Positions 10,336 to 52,787 of a stretch of 64,000 bases of DNA are shown in pieces. The notes below the pieces were generated by a model. The model did no database searches and was not told the DNA's origin. It saw only the letters and a program-made list of their open reading frames with translations. A program made the translations under genes and the position numbers. Source of the stretch: a virus; IMG/VR virus record IMGVR_UViG_3300045988_183620, one strand, 5' to 3'. Position 1 is the stretch's first letter; every line of letters begins with the position of its first letter.

Positions 10336-10400
10336 CGTTGCCCGTCGTCCGCCCCGTGGAGGCCATCTTTATGGACGACTGACGGAGTTTTGCTCCGTCC
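10336..10400. repeat. conserved-loop hairpin element, copy A (core ccccgtggaggc); about 110-nt extended homology with copy B
   Basis: gcgttgcccg...gccccgtggaggccatctttatg followed by a hairpin tggacgACTGACggag/ctccgtcca and ccgcagccgctttcgccacacgg. Confidence 0.5.
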
Positions 10401-10600
10401 ATACCGCAGCCGCTTTCGCCACACGGTATGATTATTACGGCTTGCTTGCGCATCCTGTTCTACCGGCGTGTCCGCCGTAGCGCGGCAAGATGAACAATGC
10501 TCGTGGTGTAGTTTTACCCGAAAAAGGAGATTCGGAAATCCGCGCTTATGCAACCTCACGAAAATCATTGGATAGAGAATATTAGCCGCAAAAGGTCTTG

Positions 10601-10670
10601 CGTTGCCCGCCATCTGCCCCGTGGAGGCTATTCTCGTTGATGACTGACGAGGGTGGTGTTCCTCGTCAAT
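10601..10670. repeat. conserved-loop hairpin element, copy B
   Basis: cgttgcccgccatctgccccgtggaggctattctcgttgatgactgacgagg...cctcgtcaatgccgcagccggtttcgccactcgg. Confidence 0.5.
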
Positions 10671-10869
10671 GCCGCAGCCGGTTTCGCCACTCGGCACTGC
10701 ATTTTTCCGGCTTGACGATGCCCTGTGTAAATCGCTTGTCCAAGCGGCGCGGACAAGGCATTCGTCTTCGTGGTCATAGTTAAGGAGTTCCGCGCAAATG
10801 ACCGTACTGCGAATCAACAACAGTACAATGCACGCCCAGAGACAGCCGCAGGAAGCGGCATGTTGCTGG

Positions 10870-10945
10870 TGGTGGAAATAGAGGGATTCGAACCCTCGAC
10901 CCCCTGCTTGCAAAGCAGGTGCTCTCCCAGCTGAGCTATATCCCC
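10870..10945 (-). tRNA. tRNA-Ala(UGC)
   Basis: Anticodon arm CCTGC-TTTGCAA-GCAGG, T-arm GAGGG-TTCGAAT-CCCTC; acceptor with G-U pairs. Confidence 0.75.
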
Positions 10946-10975
10946 ATGATGGCGGGGCATCCCCGCCGGACAGTT

Positions 10976-11368
10976 TTAGGTGTACTGGAAGTCGCCGTAC
11001 TGCTTGACCTCGCGCTCCAGGTGGAGCGGAATGGTCTTGGTGCTTCGCTGCGTGATGTCGCTACGTGCCACCAGAGTCTCGCTTACGCCTGCCGCCTGAA
11101 GAACTTCAAACAGATTGGACGGTCCTGTACCAGCATAGCCCGCCGTCAGTCCGTTGACACGCATTGTAAACCCATGCAGATGCGGTGCCAGGCCAGAAAT
11201 GAAATCGAGTTCAACAATGACCTCGTCACTCTTATCGTTCACACGTTTGACTGAGATAGCACGGATGTTCTGGCTTCCGAAGGTCTCAATCAGTTTCTTG
11301 GCTGCCGCTGCGGTTTCAATCGTGGATGTACCTTCTACATTGATAATTGCCTGCTCCATTGGAATCAT
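10976..11368 (-). CDS. hypothetical protein embedded between tRNAs
   Basis: 130-aa ORF whose composition is not tRNA-derived (GYAGTGPSNLFEVLQAAG). Confidence 0.45.
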   Translation of the reverse strand: MIPMEQAIINVEGTSTIETAAAAKKLIETFGSQNIRAISVKRVNDKSDEVIVELDFISGLAPHLHGFTMRVNGLTAGYAGTGPSNLFEVLQAAGVSETLVARSDITQRSTKTIPLHLEREVKQYGDFQYT

Positions 11369-11560
11369 CTCCTTTCTACTTCAAGTTGTCATGCACTGTG
11401 GCAGATAACGCTCTGCCCTGCGAGGCTTTACGTTGCCTATTCGTGTTCGGTTCCGGTGCCGACGACTTCCGGCAGGACTTAGCCAACCGCCAACAGGTGC
11501 ATGCCCCCGTTGGAAGCTTCTTGGGCGGTTTCTCAATGAGCGCGTCGCCCAATCGGACCG

Positions 11561-11636
11561 TGGAGCTTAGTGGCAGATTCGAACTGCCCGCCTGCACATT
11601 ACGAGTGTGCCGCTCTGCCTAATGAGCTAACCAAGC
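11561..11636 (-). tRNA. tRNA-Thr(CGU)
   Basis: Anticodon arm GCACA-CTCGTAA-TGTGC, T-arm GGCAG-TTCGAAT-CTGCC. Confidence 0.75.
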
Positions 11637-11639
11637 ATG

Positions 11640-50131: not shown

Positions 50132-50211
50132 AAATATCCTCCAAAATATGTTATTTGTTTTCGGTTTCCCGATGGTTTGTTAGAAAGCAAAGTTGTCTGC
50201 CAGCCGTAGCT

Positions 50212-50264
50212 GTTGCCCGCTGCCCGCCTCGTGGAGGCCTCTTTGCGTAAAGGCAGCTGCGGGG
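50212..50264. repeat. conserved-loop hairpin element, copy G (intergenic)
   Basis: gttgcccgctgcc-cgcctcgtggaggcctctttgcgtaaa-ggcagc. Confidence 0.5.
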
Positions 50265-50274
50265 AGAACCCCGC

Positions 50275-50871
50275 TCAAGATTTGATGTTTAGGCGTCTAT
50301 TGATTTCTTTCACGCCGAGTTTCCGAGATGTAAATACAGGCTTTACCTCCTGCCCATGCTGCTTTACAACCCGTTCGAGCACCGTCCAGGACGACTCGCT
50401 TTCATCCTCAAAGGAATACGGGTCAAGGTTCAGAAAGAGCCAGGTCTTGGTGTGTTCCCTGCCTGCCAGATAATGAATGAGTGATGCGGTAATGGCAAGC
50501 ACGCCCTTATGCCATGTATAGGTCATAGTTCGGCTCACATCATGGACAATAAGTTGGGGCTGCTTCCCCATCGCCATATCGACTTCAATGGTATGCGCGG
50601 CAACAGGCTTGTCGTCCGTAATCTTATACTGATGCAGAATCATCGGGATACGACCTGGAACGATACGGTCATGGTCCAACACAAAGTCTGCGTACTCCCC
50701 TGTCACATCAAAGACAATGATTCGGTCTGAGGTGGTACGCAGCACCTTGGCAATCTGACGCTTACACCAGAACGTCCTCCCTACCCCTTCATTGGCAGAT
50801 ACGAGAGTATAGTAGCTGGTTTTAATGATATTAGGTTCTATCCTTTTCATTCCTTGATGTACTCCTCGCAA
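50275..50871 (-). CDS. hypothetical protein
   Basis: 198-aa ORF. Confidence 0.45.
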   Translation of the reverse strand: MRGVHQGMKRIEPNIIKTSYYTLVSANEGVGRTFWCKRQIAKVLRTTSDRIIVFDVTGEYADFVLDHDRIVPGRIPMILHQYKITDDKPVAAHTIEVDMAMGKQPQLIVHDVSRTMTYTWHKGVLAITASLIHYLAGREHTKTWLFLNLDPYSFEDESESSWTVLERVVKQHGQEVKPVFTSRKLGVKEINRRLNIKS

Positions 50872-51377
50872 GACTCCAGTTTGCGTTCTGCATAACTCTC
50901 ATCACCCGTAACATTGACCAGAAATTCTTGCAATTCAGCTTCGAGCTTCTTCTCGGTCAGAGTTGCGAGCTTTTCGCTATACTCTTTCGGCGGCCAATCA
51001 ATGGCACAGAAAATCATCGTGTTGCCATCGTAGTCAAAGGTGCTGTAAAAGCTCCCGGCGGGATAACCGTAGCATTTTTCAAAAACACGGCACAGTGCAT
51101 TCGCATAGATGATATGGGCCTCTCCCTTCAAGCAGTCACTTCCGTAGTCCTTGGCCCGGCGCAGATTGTACCAATCACCGGCTGCCGCAGCAAATTTCAT
51201 GTACAGCGGCCAGGATTCATACCCATCGAGGCCTTCATTTTTGAAAGATGGCACTAAATCGAGAACTTCTTCTTTTGTCGGAGCGTATCTTGCCAGATAA
51301 TCCTCGTTGTAATGGACTTCCTCACCGTCTCCAAGGGTAATGCCTTTCCCGGTGTTGTTTACGTGATACCACCCCAT
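50847..51377 (-). CDS. hypothetical protein
   Basis: Start at MGWYHVNN with a TAATG stop/start overlap. Confidence 0.45.
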   Translation of the reverse strand: MGWYHVNNTGKGITLGDGEEVHYNEDYLARYAPTKEEVLDLVPSFKNEGLDGYESWPLYMKFAAAAGDWYNLRRAKDYGSDCLKGEAHIIYANALCRVFEKCYGYPAGSFYSTFDYDGNTMIFCAIDWPPKEYSEKLATLTEKKLEAELQEFLVNVTGDESYAERKLESCEEYIKE

Positions 51378-51979
51378 TAGTTGTTTGCCCCCTCCATTTG
51401 CATTTTGATTAGCAGAACTGCGCTTGTTGCAGACAGCAGTGAAAGGAATCCGCACAGAAACGATGCCCAAAAATTCTCGGCGTCGGAGCTGCTGTCTACG
51501 CTGATATAGTACGGATATGCGTTCATGTCTCCAATTGCTTCCTGATATTCCTCCAGGTGTTCTGCCGGGACTGCCAGGATATTGCCCTTGATGGGGGTAT
51601 GGCTGTAGATATATGAGCCTTTTTCGTTATCATCGAACTCAGCCGCGATGATGTATGAGTCACCGCTTTTTGTGTATACCTTTATCGGATAGAAGGCTGT
51701 CACATAGTCGCCGGATGGCTCATCGCTTGCAGCCTGATGCCGCTCCCACATAATGATGTTGGATACAATGTTATAGTCTTCAGAGTCAAGCGCAATGGGC
51801 TTCTTCACATATTGCTCCAGCTCAGAAGGCTCAACCGTAGCCAGGTTCGTTCTGATAACCTGCTGCATATAGGAAATCGGCACGAATGCGAACAGTACCG
51901 CCATCACCAGCATGAGAAGTATCTGCATAATTGTTTTTGTTTTCTTTTTCATAGTTATCTCCCATGCGCGGCATACCAA
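51377..51979 (-). CDS. membrane protein
   Basis: N- and C-terminal TM segments. Confidence 0.5.
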   Translation of the reverse strand: MVCRAWEITMKKKTKTIMQILLMLVMAVLFAFVPISYMQQVIRTNLATVEPSELEQYVKKPIALDSEDYNIVSNIIMWERHQAASDEPSGDYVTAFYPIKVYTKSGDSYIIAAEFDDNEKGSYIYSHTPIKGNILAVPAEHLEEYQEAIGDMNAYPYYISVDSSSDAENFWASFLCGFLSLLSATSAVLLIKMQMEGANN

Positions 51980-52326
51980 GCATAGAAGCCATCATATTGC
52001 TCCCGCCCCGGTCTGCCTTCACTTAGACTTGCCGGTGCCAACAGATGGCTGTGCCGCCCGGCGGACAAGCCTTTGGCGTAGGCACTTTTTGCAGCTTCTT
52101 TGAGTTCTTCCGGGAATTTTTGTTCTTCCCTTTCGTTTTCTCGAAAGGCTTCCGCAAACGCTTTGTATAGGTCGTAGGTTTCCTTCTCTGGATTAAACGG
52201 CGCAGTTCTATAATATTCTGTTATGAACCATTTCTTACCGTCTATACTGGTTAGATAAAATCTTGTATTTGGAATCGAAATACTTCCTACCATGTCACTC
52301 ACCAATCTCCTGATACGCGAACCCAC
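51955..52326 (-). CDS. hypothetical protein
   Basis: 123-aa ORF. Confidence 0.45.
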   Translation of the reverse strand: MGSRIRRLVSDMVGSISIPNTRFYLTSIDGKKWFITEYYRTAPFNPEKETYDLYKAFAEAFRENEREEQKFPEELKEAAKSAYAKGLSAGRHSHLLAPASLSEGRPGREQYDGFYAWYAAHGR

Positions 52327-52687
52327 TCTGTCCTTGTCCCGCTGTAATACGGAGTATGAGATACGCTTCGTAGGCCCATTTGCGCTCTCGCTCTTCCTCC
52401 AATGCTTGCTCCTCCTTCAGTTCCTTGACTGTGGCGAGCAGCTTATCTTCTTTGCCTTCCGCTTCACCTTTGGCAAAGGCGGCTTTTTGGGATTCGTCAA
52501 TGCGTTGGTATCTGCTCTTTCGCTCTTTCTCGATATAGAGTAGTCCATTGGCTACTGCATCGAGAAATGCTTGTGTCTCAAAGGCAGAAATAGTTTTTTT
52601 CCCATCCTTATCTTTGGATACACAGAAAAAGCCGTCATCGTCATAGCAGATGAAATAGGGAGAGTTTGGGACCTGTTGTGTTTTCAT
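52295..52687 (-). CDS. hypothetical coiled-coil protein
   Basis: 130-aa ORF. Confidence 0.45.
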   Translation of the reverse strand: MKTQQVPNSPYFICYDDDGFFCVSKDKDGKKTISAFETQAFLDAVANGLLYIEKERKSRYQRIDESQKAAFAKGEAEGKEDKLLATVKELKEEQALEEERERKWAYEAYLILRITAGQGQSGFAYQEIGE

Positions 52688-52740
52688 GGCTTTCTCCCCT
52701 TCTTTTTCGTTCTGAAGACTATTCGCCAGGAGCCTTTCCC

Positions 52741-52787
52741 GTTGCCCGCCGCTCGCCCCGTGGAGGCTGTCTTCTTAAAGCGGCAAC
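52741..52787. repeat. conserved-loop hairpin element, copy H (intergenic)
   Basis: gttgcccgc-cgctcgccccgtggaggctgtcttcttaaa-gcggcaac. Confidence 0.5.

What the first reader, a model, noticed from the sequence alone, without database searches (positions are those of the whole stretch)
10336..52787. Eight-copy family of hairpins with a conserved loop and co-varying stems (consensus roughly CGCC-N-CG-Y-GGAGGCUGUCU)
Eight sites share a 20-24-nt conserved sequence, most often with GTTGYCC about 10 nt upstream: 10336, 10601, 12215, 13097, 13725, 14058, 50212 and 52741.

The conserved block is always flanked by inverted repeats whose sequences differ between copies but stay complementary:
- ccaccacc / gggtgg
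- atccctc / gagggat
- gtcacc / ggtgac
- ttcct / aggaa
- gttgcccgc / gcggcaac
- gctgcc / ggcagc

Stem covariation with a conserved loop implies selection on a folded RNA or single-stranded DNA structure, such as a protein-binding hairpin, a processing or termination signal, or an attC-like recombination site. It is not what a double-stranded operator would look like.

Six copies punctuate the second tRNA array. One ends 3 nt from the 3' end of the tRNA at 12248-12322, and one lies 35 nt upstream of the 5' end of the tRNA at 10213-10301. Two copies sit in mRNA intergenic regions (50.2 kb and 52.7 kb) between a stop codon and the next ribosome-binding site.

Copies A and B share about 110 nt of extended homology, including a second hairpin with an ACUGAC bulge. 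I do not recognise this as any described RNA motif.
Basis: seen in the sequence. Interest (0 to 1): 0.8.

Follow-up and report, generated by a model that had tools for sequence, protein, structure and literature searches.

The report
Self-cleaving HDV-like ribozymes in a phage
The repeated "hairpins" are eight copies, plus one broken copy, of a known self-cutting RNA (an HDV-like ribozyme) read on the opposite strand, and they probably chop a phage's long tRNA, non-coding RNA and mRNA transcripts into defined pieces.

Summary
On the minus strand, which is the strand of all 22 tRNAs and of the flanking genes, each site is a complete HDV-like self-cleaving ribozyme of the Faecalibacterium prausnitzii type (Rfam RF02682). 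P2, P4 and the catalytic C in J4/2 are also present.

- **Copy number:** there are eight full copies. The listed site at 12215 is a truncated remnant.
- **Rfam support:** two copies exceed the Rfam gathering score and six fall below it.
- **Relatives:** 90 unique relatives from viral contigs show strong covariation.
- **Not theta ribozymes:** they have P4, and they do not cut at tRNA 3' ends.
- **Position:** each follows a helix that ends 0-4 nt before the cut. Three sit 4-7 nt upstream of a tRNA, and two lie between a stop codon and the next ribosome-binding site.

The likely role is co-transcriptional punctuation of an RNA operon. This is a new member of a known kind and of moderate interest. 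The more novel items are conserved unknown structured RNAs next to the ribozymes.

The parts
10309..10379 (-). Ribozyme A. P1 GUCGUCC/GGACGAC, P2 AAGAUG/CAUCUU, P3 GCC/GGC, L3 UCCACGG, P1.1 CC:GG, P4 CGCAG/CUGCG, J4/2 GCUAA. The predicted cut is between 10380 and 10379. The 3' end lies 7 nt before the 5' end of tRNA-Ser (10301).
   Evidence: Rfam RF02682 45.3 bits, above the gathering score of 44. Model R1 69.2 bits. Anatomy.
10575..10644 (-). Ribozyme B. P1 GUCAUC/GAUGGC, P2 GAGAAUA/UAUUCUC, P4 CGCAA/UUGCG, J4/2 GCUAA. The predicted cut is between 10645 and 10644.
   Evidence: RF02682 36.3 bits. R1 61.5 bits. Anatomy.
12783..12862 (-). P1 ACUGCUC/GAGCAGU, P2 GAAGAC/GUCUUC, P3 ACC/GGU, a long P4, and J4/2 GCGAA as in HDV. 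The predicted cut is between 12863 and 12862.
   Evidence: RF02682 40.6 bits and RF00094 29.8 bits. R1 52.6 bits.
13066..13138 (-). Ribozyme D. P1 GCCACCC/GGGUGGU with a G1.U pair, P2 UGAGAC/GUCUCA, P4 CAAAUGC/GCAUUUG, J4/2 GCAAA. The predicted cut is between 13139 and 13138.
   Evidence: RF02682 37 bits. R1 64.2 bits.
13690..13766 (-). Ribozyme E. P1 AUCCCUC/GAGGGAU, P2 ACAAGACA/UGUCUUGU, P4 CGCAAG/CUUGCG, J4/2 GCCAA. The 3' end lies 6 nt before tRNA-Met (13683).
   Evidence: RF02682 41.5 bits. R1 60.1 bits. Distance to the tRNA.
14024..14096 (-). Ribozyme F. P1 GUCACC/GGUGAC, P2 AUAAGACA/UGUCUUAU, P4 CACGGG/CCCGUG, J4/2 GCAAA. The 3' end lies 4 nt before tRNA-Asn (14019).
   Evidence: RF02682 29 bits. 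R1 46.9 bits. Distance to the tRNA.
50187..50257 (-). Ribozyme G. P1 GCUGCCU/GGGCAGC, P2 GCAAAG/CUUUGC, P4 CAGC/GCUG with a UACG loop, J4/2 GCAGA. It lies between the stop codon of ORF 50275-50871 and the ribosome-binding site and ATG (50131) of ORF 49244-50131.
   Evidence: RF02682 35.9 bits. R1 52.5 bits. Sequence.
52714..52784 (-). Ribozyme H. P1 GCCGCUU/GAGCGGC, P2 GAAGAC/GUCUUC, P4 CGGGA/UCCUG, J4/2 GCGAA. It lies between the stop codon of the SPFH/flotillin-like ORF (52822-54663) and the ribosome-binding site and ATG (52687) of ORF 52295-52687.
   Evidence: RF02682 47.0 bits, above the gathering score. R1 71.8 bits. The same position is conserved in 22 of 24 related loci.
12209..12257 (-). 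It starts directly after the CCA of tRNA-Gly. It keeps the P1 5' strand, the P2 5' strand, P3 and L3. From the P1 3' strand onwards it is replaced by the ribosome-binding site and start of a 64-aa ORF (12014-12208). There is no P4, no catalytic C and no P2 3' strand, so it is predicted to be inactive.
   Evidence: R1 gives a partial hit at 12223-12254 covering model positions 3-34 (16 bits). An intact homologue sits right after tRNA-Gly-CCA in L063. ORF64 is present only in the 4 closest relatives.
10381..10399 (-). Helix that ends 1 nt before the cut site of A (GACGGAG-caaaa-CUCCGUC, then A).
10646..10667 (-). Helix that ends 1 nt before the cut site of B (GACGAGG...CCCUCGUC, then A).
12864..12890 (-). 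Helix that ends 1 nt before the cut site of N (GCGCGGA...UCCGCGC, then U).
13139..13168 (-). Helix that ends at the cut site of D (AGGGC.CG.CG...CG.CG.GCCCU).
13769..13848 (-). An approximately 80-nt structured element closed by UCGGAGA/UCUCCGA. It ends 2 nt before the cut site of E by sequence. The minimum-free-energy fold adds one further pair and ends 1 nt before the cut.
14101..14154 (-). Stem-loop (CCCGC...GCGGG) that ends 4 nt before the cut site of F. The homologous element also lies directly upstream of ribozymes in more than 20 other loci.
50259..50274 (-). Hairpin GCGGGG-uucu-CCCCGC. It starts right after the UGA stop codon (50275-50277) and ends 1 nt before the cut site of G.
52787..52805 (-). 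Hairpin CAGUCCC-ugcgg-GGGGCUG. By sequence it ends 2 nt (UU) before the cut site of H. The minimum-free-energy fold adds one further pair and ends 1 nt before the cut. Orthologues keep a hairpin here with a different sequence.
10380..10545 (-).
10645..10795 (-). "X RNA", paralogue B. Its 3' end is the cut site of ribozyme B.

Best explanation
The sites are HDV-like (delta-like) self-cleaving ribozymes of the drz-Fpra / Rfam RF02682 type. They are encoded on the minus strand of a large phage genome and transcribed as part of the same RNAs as the tRNAs and genes around them.

**The fold.** Each copy forms the nested double pseudoknot P1-P1.1-P2-P3-P4. It is predicted to cut its own backbone immediately 5' of P1, using the cytosine at the start of J4/2. 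The cut would leave a 2',3'-cyclic phosphate on the upstream RNA. It would also leave a 5'-OH on the ribozyme, which stays attached to the downstream RNA.

**Inferred function.** The ribozymes punctuate long polycistronic transcripts as they are made.
- In the roughly 4-kb tRNA and non-coding RNA operon (about 14.3 to 10.2 kb, minus strand), each cut gives the upstream RNA a defined 3' end that finishes in a helix. Upstream RNAs include the X RNAs and other conserved structured spacers.
- Where a tRNA follows 4-7 nt downstream (A, E, F), RNase P would then remove the ribozyme as a leader.
- At G and H the cut separates two cistrons. The upstream mRNA ends in a stop-proximal hairpin, and the downstream mRNA starts with a 5'-OH ribozyme 26-55 nt before its start codon.

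**Shown versus inferred.** The fold, the covariation, the strand and the conserved positions are shown. Cleavage itself and its physiological consequences are inferred.
For: **Identity**
- Rfam RF02682 matches all eight full copies on the minus strand. Two exceed the gathering score (47.0 and 45.3 against 44) and six score 29-41.5 bits. There are also weak RF00094 (HDV) hits.
- All eight copies have P1 (6-7 bp), P2 (5-8 bp), P3 RCC/GGY, L3 UCCNCGN, GG for P1.1, a P4 hairpin and J4/2 GC(N)AA.
- The core GCCUCCUCGC..GGGCAAC..GGCGAA is nearly that of the genomic HDV ribozyme. I compared it with the HDV sequence from my own knowledge.

**Covariation**
- A pattern scan of viral contigs returned at least 120 loci.
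- Of 239 cores, 231 have a perfect P1. There are 90 unique ribozymes with 45 different P1 helices.
- On 88 unique sequences, 95.2% of cells are paired, against 26-55% when partners are slid. All six P1 pairs and four of five P4 pairs show changes on both sides. The first P3 pair is GC in 64, AU in 21 and GU in 3.
- The G.U pairs fix the strand.

**Copy number in the window**
- Model R1 with filters off finds exactly eight full copies and one fragment in the window.

**Position**
- A helix ends 0-1 nt before the cut in 96 of 112 unique contexts, against 74 of 336 random positions. It ends 0-4 nt before the cut in all eight window copies.
- A tRNA 5' end lies 4-7 nt after the ribozyme in 23 of 109 unique contexts.
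- H is kept about 25 nt upstream of the same gene's ATG in 22 of 24 relatives with 69-90% protein identity. Those copies show compensatory changes, and the upstream hairpin has a different sequence.

**Context**
- All 22 tRNAs are on the minus strand.
- A promoter-like site (14338-14311) and a terminator-like site (10205-10189) bracket the array.
Against: - No cleavage was measured.
- Six of the eight copies are below Rfam's curated gathering score.
- Copies N and E begin with A rather than the usual G at +1. This is also true of 17 of 90 relatives.
- The functional reading is indirect. An HDV-type cut leaves the ribozyme on the downstream RNA, so it cannot by itself mature a downstream tRNA or RNA.
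- G is present only in the two closest relatives and C is dead. Individual copies are therefore dispensable.
- The sequences in the covariation set were collected with a pattern that fixes the core, and I then required a perfect P1. The P1 pairing percentage is therefore partly by construction, although only 8 of 239 cores were dropped.
Confidence: 0.8

Rival explanations
1. They are theta-type ribozymes whose job is tRNA 3'-trailer removal, cutting exactly at the tRNA 3' end, as described for gut phages by Kienbeck et al. 2024.
For: - The same habitat and the same association with phage tRNA arrays: 613 tRNAs in 76 of the ribozyme loci.
- The remnant C sits directly after tRNA-Gly-CCA, and its intact homologue in L063 does the same.
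- In 19 of 228 instances a tRNA 3' end lies within 5 nt of the cut.
- The published description is in PMC10879173.
Against: - For the eight full copies, the nearest upstream tRNA 3' end is 93-635 nt from the cut, or absent.
- All eight have a P4 helix of 4-10 bp, whereas theta ribozymes are minimal forms that lack P4.
- The only tRNA-3'-adjacent copy in the window is the broken one.
- The window has no suppressor tRNA.
Confidence: 0.1
2. The ribozymes act mainly on what lies downstream. By creating a 5'-OH end capped by a compact fold, they would set the stability or translation of the downstream tRNA precursor or mRNA. This could work as an insulator, like the synthetic RiboJ. It could instead expose the RNA to 5'-end-dependent decay, as RNase J1 does after glmS ribozyme cleavage in Bacillus (Collins et al. 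2007, from my own knowledge).
For: - The spacing to the downstream tRNA 5' end is tight: 4-7 nt in 23 of 109 contexts, including A, E and F.
- H is fixed about 25 nt upstream of one gene's ATG across relatives, while the upstream sequence varies.
- In several loci the ribozyme's 3' end abuts the 330-nt conserved RNA.
- Between the window and L016, ribozyme D plus its downstream spacer, and ribozyme B plus its downstream spacer, are replaced together.
Against: - The most general feature is an upstream helix abutting the cut, which points to the upstream product.
- In the X-ribozyme modules it is the upstream RNA that is conserved with the ribozyme.
- This reading is not exclusive of the main explanation.
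Confidence: 0.3
3. The copies are selfish or relic elements. They would have spread by recombination at module junctions and have no present function for the phage.
For: - Mosaic pattern: ribozymes B and D and their neighbouring spacers are 70-82% identical to L016, while flanking segments are 94-100% identical.
- G occurs only where a different upstream gene module is joined.
- C is truncated.
Against: - The full fold and the catalytic C are maintained in 90 unique sequences through compensatory changes.
- H is kept at one position across relatives with 69-90% protein identity.
- The upstream helix is maintained with changing sequence.
Confidence: 0.07
4. One reading: a plus-strand or DNA-level hairpin that binds a protein, terminates transcription or serves as an attC-like recombination site.
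For: Inverted repeats with a conserved centre exist on either strand of the DNA.
Against: - G.U pairs in P1 (25 of 88 at pair 1) and in P4 become C.A mismatches on the plus strand.
- The extra conserved parts (P2, P4, J4/2 C, P1.1) are explained only by the ribozyme fold.
- No U-tract follows the stem.
- No integrase or integron context was seen.
Confidence: 0.02

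Closest known systems
drz-Fpra-1/2, the HDV-like ribozymes of Faecalibacterium prausnitzii (Rfam RF02682)
   Same: - The same fold and nearly the same core: RCC-UCCNCGN-GGY, GG, GCAAC, P4, GC(N)AA.
- The Rfam model matches all eight copies, two of them above the gathering score.
- Related copies occur in genomes of Clostridia from gut and rumen samples.
   Different: - The chromosomal examples found here have an almost invariant P1 (GCCGCAC/GUGCGGC). The published one lies upstream of glmM (PMC6765202).
- The window's copies are in a phage, are multi-copy (eight in 64 kb), and have diverse P1, P2 and P4.
- They sit in a tRNA and non-coding RNA array and between phage genes.
Theta ribozymes (minimal HDV-like ribozymes at phage tRNA 3' ends; Kienbeck et al. 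2024, PMC10879173)
   Same: HDV-like chemistry and fold, phage genomes, and an association with tRNA clusters. The remnant C and its intact L063 homologue cut right after tRNA-Gly-CCA.
   Different: - Theta ribozymes lack P4, and they are called tRNA-associated when the cut lies within 5 nt of a tRNA 3' end.
- The eight full copies have P4 and cut 93 nt or more from any tRNA 3' end.
- The commonest tRNA-adjacent arrangement in this group is the ribozyme lying 4-7 nt upstream of a tRNA.
Genomic hepatitis delta virus ribozyme (Rfam RF00094)
   Same: - The same double-pseudoknot architecture.
- Copy N matches the HDV core almost letter for letter (ACC/GCC-UCCUCG, GGGCAACAUU, AUGGCGAA).
- Weak RF00094 hits fall on N, D and F.
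- An upstream helix that helps folding is known for HDV (Chadalavada et al. 2000, from my own knowledge).
   Different: The HDV ribozyme processes rolling-circle RNA genomes of an animal satellite virus. Here the ribozymes are DNA-encoded in a phage. Their scores are far below the RF00094 gathering score (about 25-30 bits against 50).
Ribozyme or tRNA "punctuation" of polycistronic RNA: bacterial hammerhead and twister ribozymes between genes, the synthetic RiboJ insulator, and the mitochondrial tRNA punctuation model
   Same: A cis-acting cut separates the units of one transcript. For G and H the layout stop codon, hairpin, cut, ribozyme, ribosome-binding site is what such a role predicts. 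The review PMC6765202 proposes this role for hammerhead and twister ribozymes in bacteria.
   Different: This is a resemblance of function only. The ribozyme class is different, and no experiment here shows differential stability or expression.

Membership tests
HDV-like (delta-like) self-cleaving ribozymes / Rfam RF02682 | Nested double pseudoknot: P1 enclosing P3; P2 crossing P1; a 2-bp P1.1 between L3 and the nucleotides after P1; and P4 | tested here: met
   All helices are present in all eight full copies. Covariation for P1, P3 and P4, and an invariant P1.1, in 88 unique relatives. P2 takes seven different complementary forms within the window.
HDV-like (delta-like) self-cleaving ribozymes / Rfam RF02682 | Catalytic cytosine at the start of J4/2, directly after P4 | tested here: met
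   J4/2 reads GCUAA, GCUAA, GCGAA, GCAAA, GCCAA, GCAAA, GCAGA and GCGAA in A, B, N, D, E, F, G and H. That column is C in at least 90% of the 88 sequences. A pattern of purine, C, any base, purine, A placed up to 4 nt before the P2 3' strand fits 78 of 90 unique sequences.
HDV-like (delta-like) self-cleaving ribozymes / Rfam RF02682 | Score at or above Rfam's curated gathering threshold (44 bits) | tested here: inconclusive
   Two copies pass (H 47.0, A 45.3). Six do not (E 41.5, N 40.6, D 37, B 36.3, G 35.9, F 29). All eight score 47-72 bits with model R1. However, R1 was built from relatives that include five of these copies and identical copies of the other three, so this is partly by construction.
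HDV-like (delta-like) self-cleaving ribozymes / Rfam RF02682 | Mg2+-dependent self-scission 5' of position +1, abolished by mutating the catalytic C to U | not testable with these tools
   This needs in vitro transcription and cleavage assays. Published for drz-Fpra and for theta ribozymes.
HDV-like (delta-like) self-cleaving ribozymes / Rfam RF02682 | G at +1, forming G.U or G-C at the base of P1 | tested here: inconclusive
   Six of the eight copies start with G. N and E start with A, forming an A-U pair. Among 90 relatives the first base is G in 72, A in 17 and C in 1. Whether A1 variants cleave is not known to me.
Theta ribozymes (Kienbeck et al. 2024) | Minimal form without a P4 domain | tested here: not met
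   P4 of 4-10 bp is present in all eight copies.
Theta ribozymes (Kienbeck et al. 2024) | Cleavage site within +/-5 nt of a tRNA 3' end (the published criterion for a theta ribozyme to be called tRNA-associated) | tested here: not met
   The distances are 93, 177, 359, 635, 225 and 490 nt, and there is no tRNA near G or H. Only the truncated remnant C abuts tRNA-Gly-CCA.
Intrinsic (Rho-independent) terminators | G+C-rich hairpin followed directly by a U-tract | tested here: not met
   None of the nine sites appears in the terminator scan of 3000-15500. The stems are followed by the ribozyme body or by GGRCAAC, not by a run of U.
attC-type recombination sites | Single-stranded DNA hairpin with extrahelical bases, next to an integron integrase and cassettes | tested here: not met
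   No integrase or cassette context was seen among the proteins scanned. G.U pairs indicate an RNA fold on the minus strand.

The most novel reading that the evidence does not exclude
The ribozymes may be the processing marks of a phage "RNA operon" that releases structured non-coding RNAs not yet described.

- **X RNA.** This is a 150-165 nt pseudoknotted RNA. In the 59 true instances found, its 3' end always coincides with the cut site of an HDV-like ribozyme, and it occurs in tandem X-ribozyme units. The processed products would carry 5'-OH and 2',3'-cyclic-phosphate ends. Such ends are in principle substrates for RtcB-type ligation or circularisation.
- **A 330-nt RNA.** This conserved structured RNA lies upstream of tRNA-Gly. 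In relatives it starts exactly at a ribozyme's 3' end.

Under this reading, ribozyme-delimited non-coding RNAs would be a new class of phage effector RNAs.
Probability: 0.3. Interest if true: 0.65.

Novelty: new member of a known kind. Interest (0 to 1): 0.4.

Why it matters
HDV-like ribozymes are known, and a role at phage tRNA 3' ends has been published. This window adds three points:
- The full-length, P4-containing type is also abundant in phages. One phage carries eight copies.
- Most copies do not cut at tRNA 3' ends. They follow a helix and often sit just upstream of a tRNA or a start codon.
- This extends the proposed biology from tRNA 3'-trailer removal to general punctuation of phage transcripts. 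It also gives precise, testable cleavage junctions.

The ribozymes also act as signposts to several conserved structured RNAs of unknown function in a widespread group of phages.

Tried and rejected
- **GenBank phages.** A megablast of 9000-15000 found nothing. A tblastn with the 942-aa helicase-like protein found only a 53-residue match. The phage is therefore unnamed.
- **Flanking proteins.** Pfam, PHROGs and PDB searches gave no RNA-processing enzyme. They returned HD domains, a UvrD-like helicase, SPFH, a Y-family polymerase and a ComEC-like nuclease.
- **MAFFT alignment of the eight copies.** The variable stems were misaligned. I used a descriptor parse and a larger alignment instead.
- **Swap controls for P1 and P2.** These were uninformative, with background rates of 26% and 55%, because many ribozymes share related helices. 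The slide control is the valid one.
- **Single-sequence folding.** It gave weak z-scores and alternated between the P1 fold and the P2 fold, as expected for a pseudoknot.
- **Bacterial genome scan with the core pattern.** Most hits were chance matches in high-G+C genomes. Only 24 of 83 cores passed the P1 and P2 tests.
- **X-motif scan.** Of 126 matches, 67 were chance matches in coding DNA.
- **Supplements of the theta paper.** Searching the held supplement text for five ribozyme core sequences (window copies A and H and three relatives) found none. Some of those files may be cut short.
- **Copy C as a minimal ribozyme.** I rejected this because it has no catalytic C and no P2 partner in place.

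Full report
**1. The observation**

The conserved block is real. The regex [AG]CCTCC.CG.GG[CT] occurs nine times in the window, always on the minus strand. My hand estimate is about 0.1 matches expected by chance in 128 kb.

The eighth listed site (12215) has the core but only a 5-bp stem and no 3' half.

All 22 tRNAs lie on the minus strand. The glycine tRNA is at 12258-12332, not 12248-12322.

**2. What it is**

A scan against Rfam returns RF02682, "HDV ribozyme from F. prausnitzii", on the minus strand.
- At gathering thresholds it hits 52713-52784 (47.0 bits) and 10306-10379 (45.3 bits), against a threshold of 44.
- With E-value thresholds it also hits 13691-13766 (41.5), 12781-12862 (40.6), 13066-13138 (37), 10573-10644 (36.3), 50187-50257 (35.9) and 14025-14096 (29).
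- Weak hits of the HDV model RF00094 fall on three copies.

Read 5' to 3' on the minus strand, every full copy has this order of parts:
- P1 5' strand
- J1/2 and the P2 5' strand
- P3 (RCC)
- L3 (UCCNCGN)
- P3' (GGY)
- P1 3' strand
- GG, which pairs with the CC of L3 to form P1.1
- GCAAC-like J1.1/4
- P4 hairpin of 4-10 bp
- J4/2, reading GC(N)AA and containing the catalytic C
- P2 3' strand

The "conserved loop" is P3/L3. The upstream "GTTGYCC" is the reverse complement of GGRCAAC.

Copy N (ACC-UCCUCGU-GGU ... GGGCAACAUU ... AUGGCGAA) is almost letter for letter the core of the genomic HDV ribozyme. I made that comparison with the HDV sequence from my own knowledge.

**3. More than chance, and the strand**

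- In those loci plus the window, 231 of 239 cores have a perfect P1 at the expected place and 228 also have a P2.
- There are 90 unique ribozymes and 45 different P1 helices.

On an alignment of 88 unique sequences, pairing statistics were as follows:
- 95.2% of cells pair, against 26-55% when the 3' partners are slid by 1-3 columns.
- All six counted P1 pairs and four of five P4 pairs show changes on both sides.
- The first P3 pair is G-C in 64, A-U in 21 and G.U in 3 sequences, and never A.C.
- P1.1 is invariant.
- Twenty-five G.U pairs at the first P1 pair, and 22 in P4, would be C.A mismatches on the plus strand. This fixes the active strand.

One caveat applies. The set was collected with a core pattern, and I then required a perfect P1. 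P1 pairing is therefore partly by construction, but only 8 of 239 cores were lost, and P3 and P4 were not selected.

A covariance model built from this alignment (R1) and run over the whole window with filters off finds exactly eight full-length matches. These score 46.9-71.8 bits and all lie on the minus strand. It also finds one fragment at 12223-12254 covering model positions 3-34 (16 bits). Nothing else scores above 11 bits.

**4. The odd copy C**

Directly after the CCA of tRNA-Gly the window reads AUAUUCCU-ACGCUGGUA-GCC-UCCACGC-GGC-GAGAAGGAAGG, and then the ribosome-binding site and ATG of a 64-aa ORF.

In locus L063 the homologous tRNA-Gly-CCA is followed by an intact ribozyme: UAUCCCU-ACGCUGGCA-GCC-UCCUCGU-GGC-AAGGAAUA-GG-CAAC-AGAUGCuguaGCAUCU-GGCUAA-UGCCA.

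ORF64 exists only in the four closest relatives, while the flanking spacers occur in about 70 loci. C is therefore a ribozyme truncated by a recent gene insertion. Its ancestor had the published "theta" position at a tRNA 3' end.

**5. Context in the window**

The window is a phage.
- L016 and L108 (IMG/VR viral contigs) are 93% identical over 6.4 kb and syntenic.
- PHROG families match several proteins.
- No GenBank phage matches.

The second tRNA array runs on the minus strand from a promoter-like site (14338-14311) to a terminator-like hairpin after tRNA-Ser (10205-10189). In transcription order it contains:
- tRNA-Thr
- a 93-nt spacer
- ribozyme F, tRNA-Asn
- a 177-nt spacer
- ribozyme E, tRNA-Met, tRNA-Asp
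- a 359-nt spacer
- ribozyme D
- a 203-nt spacer
- ribozyme N
- a 450-nt spacer
- tRNA-Gly, remnant C, ORF64
- a 377-nt spacer
- tRNA-Thr
- a 192-nt spacer
- ORF130, tRNA-Ala
- a 225-nt spacer
- ribozyme B
- a 195-nt spacer
- ribozyme A, tRNA-Ser

No full copy cuts at a tRNA 3' end. The distances are 93-635 nt. The 3' ends of A, E and F lie 7, 6 and 4 nt before the next tRNA.

The first, tightly packed tRNA arrays (3744-5920) have no ribozyme.

G and H lie between protein genes, in this layout:
- stop codon, then a hairpin that is adjacent to the stop codon for G and 16 nt away for H;
- 1-2 unpaired nucleotides, then the cut and the ribozyme;
- 55 nt (G) or 26 nt (H), containing a ribosome-binding site;
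- ATG.

**6. General features across relatives**

- A helix whose last paired base lies 0-1 nt from the cut is predicted in 96 of 112 unique contexts, against 74 of 336 random positions. The mean folding energy is -13.6 against -8.1 kcal/mol. In the window the helix ends 0-4 nt from the cut in all eight copies.
- The nucleotide before the cut is A in 52, U in 37, C in 1 and never G.
- A tRNA starts 4-7 nt after the ribozyme in 23 of 109 unique contexts. A tRNA ends within 5 nt of the cut in only 10.
- H is conserved about 25 nt upstream of the ATG of homologues of the 130-aa protein (69-90% identity) in 22 of 24 loci. Those copies show compensatory changes in P1 and P4, and the upstream hairpin has a changed sequence but the same place.
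- G is present only in the two closest relatives. Homologues at 60% identity have a different upstream gene and no ribozyme.
- Between the window and L016/L108, ribozyme D with its downstream spacer (76% and 71% identity) and ribozyme B with its downstream spacer (70% and 82%) are far more diverged than their neighbours (94-100%). This points to cassette-like exchange.
- Among the bacterial-genome hits that pass the P1 and P2 filters, most are Clostridia assembled from gut and rumen samples, and they have a near-invariant P1.

**7. How it most likely works**

- **Shown:** fold, covariation, strand, and conserved placement after a helix.
- **Established for the family (and my own knowledge):** Mg2+-dependent self-scission 5' of P1 through the J4/2 cytosine. 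The products are a 2',3'-cyclic phosphate upstream and a 5'-OH ribozyme that remains on the downstream RNA.
- **Inferred:** the copies cut the long minus-strand transcripts as they are made.

Because the ribozyme stays downstream, the end that it finishes is the 3' end of the upstream RNA. The near-universal helix abutting the cut would do two things. It would keep the leader from interfering with ribozyme folding, as is known for HDV. It would also leave the upstream product with a 3'-terminal hairpin.

Where a tRNA follows within 4-7 nt, RNase P would discard the ribozyme as a leader. The ribozyme and the tRNA together then act as a two-sided punctuation mark.

At G and H the cut uncouples two cistrons. 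Whether the downstream 5'-OH stabilises or destabilises that RNA cannot be decided here. In Bacillus, RNase J1 degrades the 5'-OH product of glmS cleavage.

I put about 0.9 on the identity as HDV-like ribozymes and about 0.55-0.6 on punctuation and 3'-end formation as the main role.

**8. Comparison with what is known**

The copies meet the structural definition of HDV-like ribozymes and match RF02682. Two copies pass the curated score and six do not.

They are not theta ribozymes. Those lack P4 and sit at tRNA 3' ends, and both features were tested here and not met.

They work like the proposed operon-processing hammerhead and twister ribozymes, but they belong to a different class.

In the paper library I found no description of P4-containing HDV-like ribozymes placed upstream of phage tRNAs or tied to conserved non-coding RNAs. 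Most subscription-journal papers are not covered by that library.

**9. Side findings**

*X RNA.* The spacers upstream of A and B are paralogues of a 150-165 nt RNA.
- Its invariant motif GUGGCGAAANCGGCUGCGG lies about 45 nt before the cut.
- All 59 true instances found are followed by a ribozyme core 40-44 nt downstream. Some occur as tandem X-ribozyme units.
- A proposed fold with crossing helices pairs 84.9% of cells, against 31-47% when slid, and has 11 pairs changed on both sides. This rests on only four lineages.
- No Rfam family matches at E up to 10.

*A 330-nt RNA.* The roughly 330 nt upstream of tRNA-Gly are 92-97% identical in the nearer relatives and about 79% in the more distant ones, about 65 loci in all. 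In some loci this RNA starts at a ribozyme's 3' end. RNAalifold predicts 82 pairs, 18 of them with compensatory changes.

*Other spacers* are similarly conserved.

**10. Verdict**

However, the motif is a known ribozyme family read on the wrong strand. It is a new member of a known kind in a context that has not been fully described. Interest is moderate.

Noticed in passing
window 10380-10545 and 10645-10795 (minus strand): "X RNA" is a conserved 150-165 nt RNA with apparently crossing helices and the invariant motif GUGGCGAAANCGGCUGCGG. It ends in a hairpin plus CA exactly at the ribozyme cut site. There are two paralogues here. All 59 true instances found in viral contigs are followed by an HDV-like ribozyme, sometimes as tandem units. 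It contains a single-stranded CUCCUU stretch that resembles the 3' end of 16S rRNA. No Rfam match.
   Followed up: partly
window 12333-12664 (minus strand), directly upstream of tRNA-Gly: An RNA of about 330 nt is 92-97% identical in the nearer relatives and about 79% in the more distant ones, about 65 viral loci in all. In L063, L023 and L013 it begins exactly at the 3' end of a ribozyme. RNAalifold predicts 82 pairs, 18 with compensatory changes. It has no Rfam match and its identity is unknown.
   Followed up: partly
window 11637-12013, 11369-11560, 13139-13497 (minus strand): Other "spacers" of the second tRNA array have no convincing ORF, yet they are 75-95% identical in 40-73 other viral loci. 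They are probably further non-coding RNAs.
   Followed up: no
window 10380-10644, 12863-13138 and 14190-14265, compared with L016 and L108: Divergence is mosaic. Ribozyme B with the spacer downstream of it, ribozyme D with the spacer downstream of it, and tRNA-Thr(tgt) are 70-82% identical to the close relatives. Adjacent segments are 94-100% identical, which suggests cassette-like replacement.
   Followed up: partly
window 12014-12208 (minus strand): A 64-aa ORF with a strong ribosome-binding site occurs only in the four closest relatives. It is inserted where the 3' half of the ribozyme after tRNA-Gly used to be. L063 has a different, A+T-rich insert after its intact ribozyme, so this spot may be an insertion hotspot.
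   Followed up: partly
window 3744-5920 and 6256-6339 (minus strand): The first tRNA arrays hold 14 tRNAs, mostly 3-80 nt apart with one gap of about 790 nt between the two clusters, and contain no ribozyme. They are preceded by a near-consensus sigma-70-type promoter (TTGACT, 17 nt, TATAAT at 6284-6256) and by a terminator-like hairpin at 6339-6312.
   Followed up: no
window 6358-9408 (+) and 6403-9288 (-): Two very long ORFs of 1016 and 961 aa overlap almost completely on opposite strands. The minus-strand ORF has no Pfam or PHROG match, and the plus-strand ORF was not scanned. I did not determine which one is the gene.
   Followed up: no
L219, L235, L259, L263, L264, L294 and other bacterial genome loci: Chromosomal or MAG copies of the same ribozyme type in Clostridia (Ruminococcus, Lachnospiraceae, Oscillospiraceae) share an almost invariant P1 (GCCGCAC/GUGCGGC). 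Phage copies instead have many different P1 helices.
   Followed up: partly
window 655-2055, 9428-10162 and 23619-24776 (minus strand): Two HD-domain proteins flank the tRNA arrays, and one of them starts right after the terminator of array 2. A metallo-beta-lactamase protein resembles the ComEC nuclease domain (PDB 9ic4, E 6e-34). No link to RNA end healing was established.
   Followed up: partly
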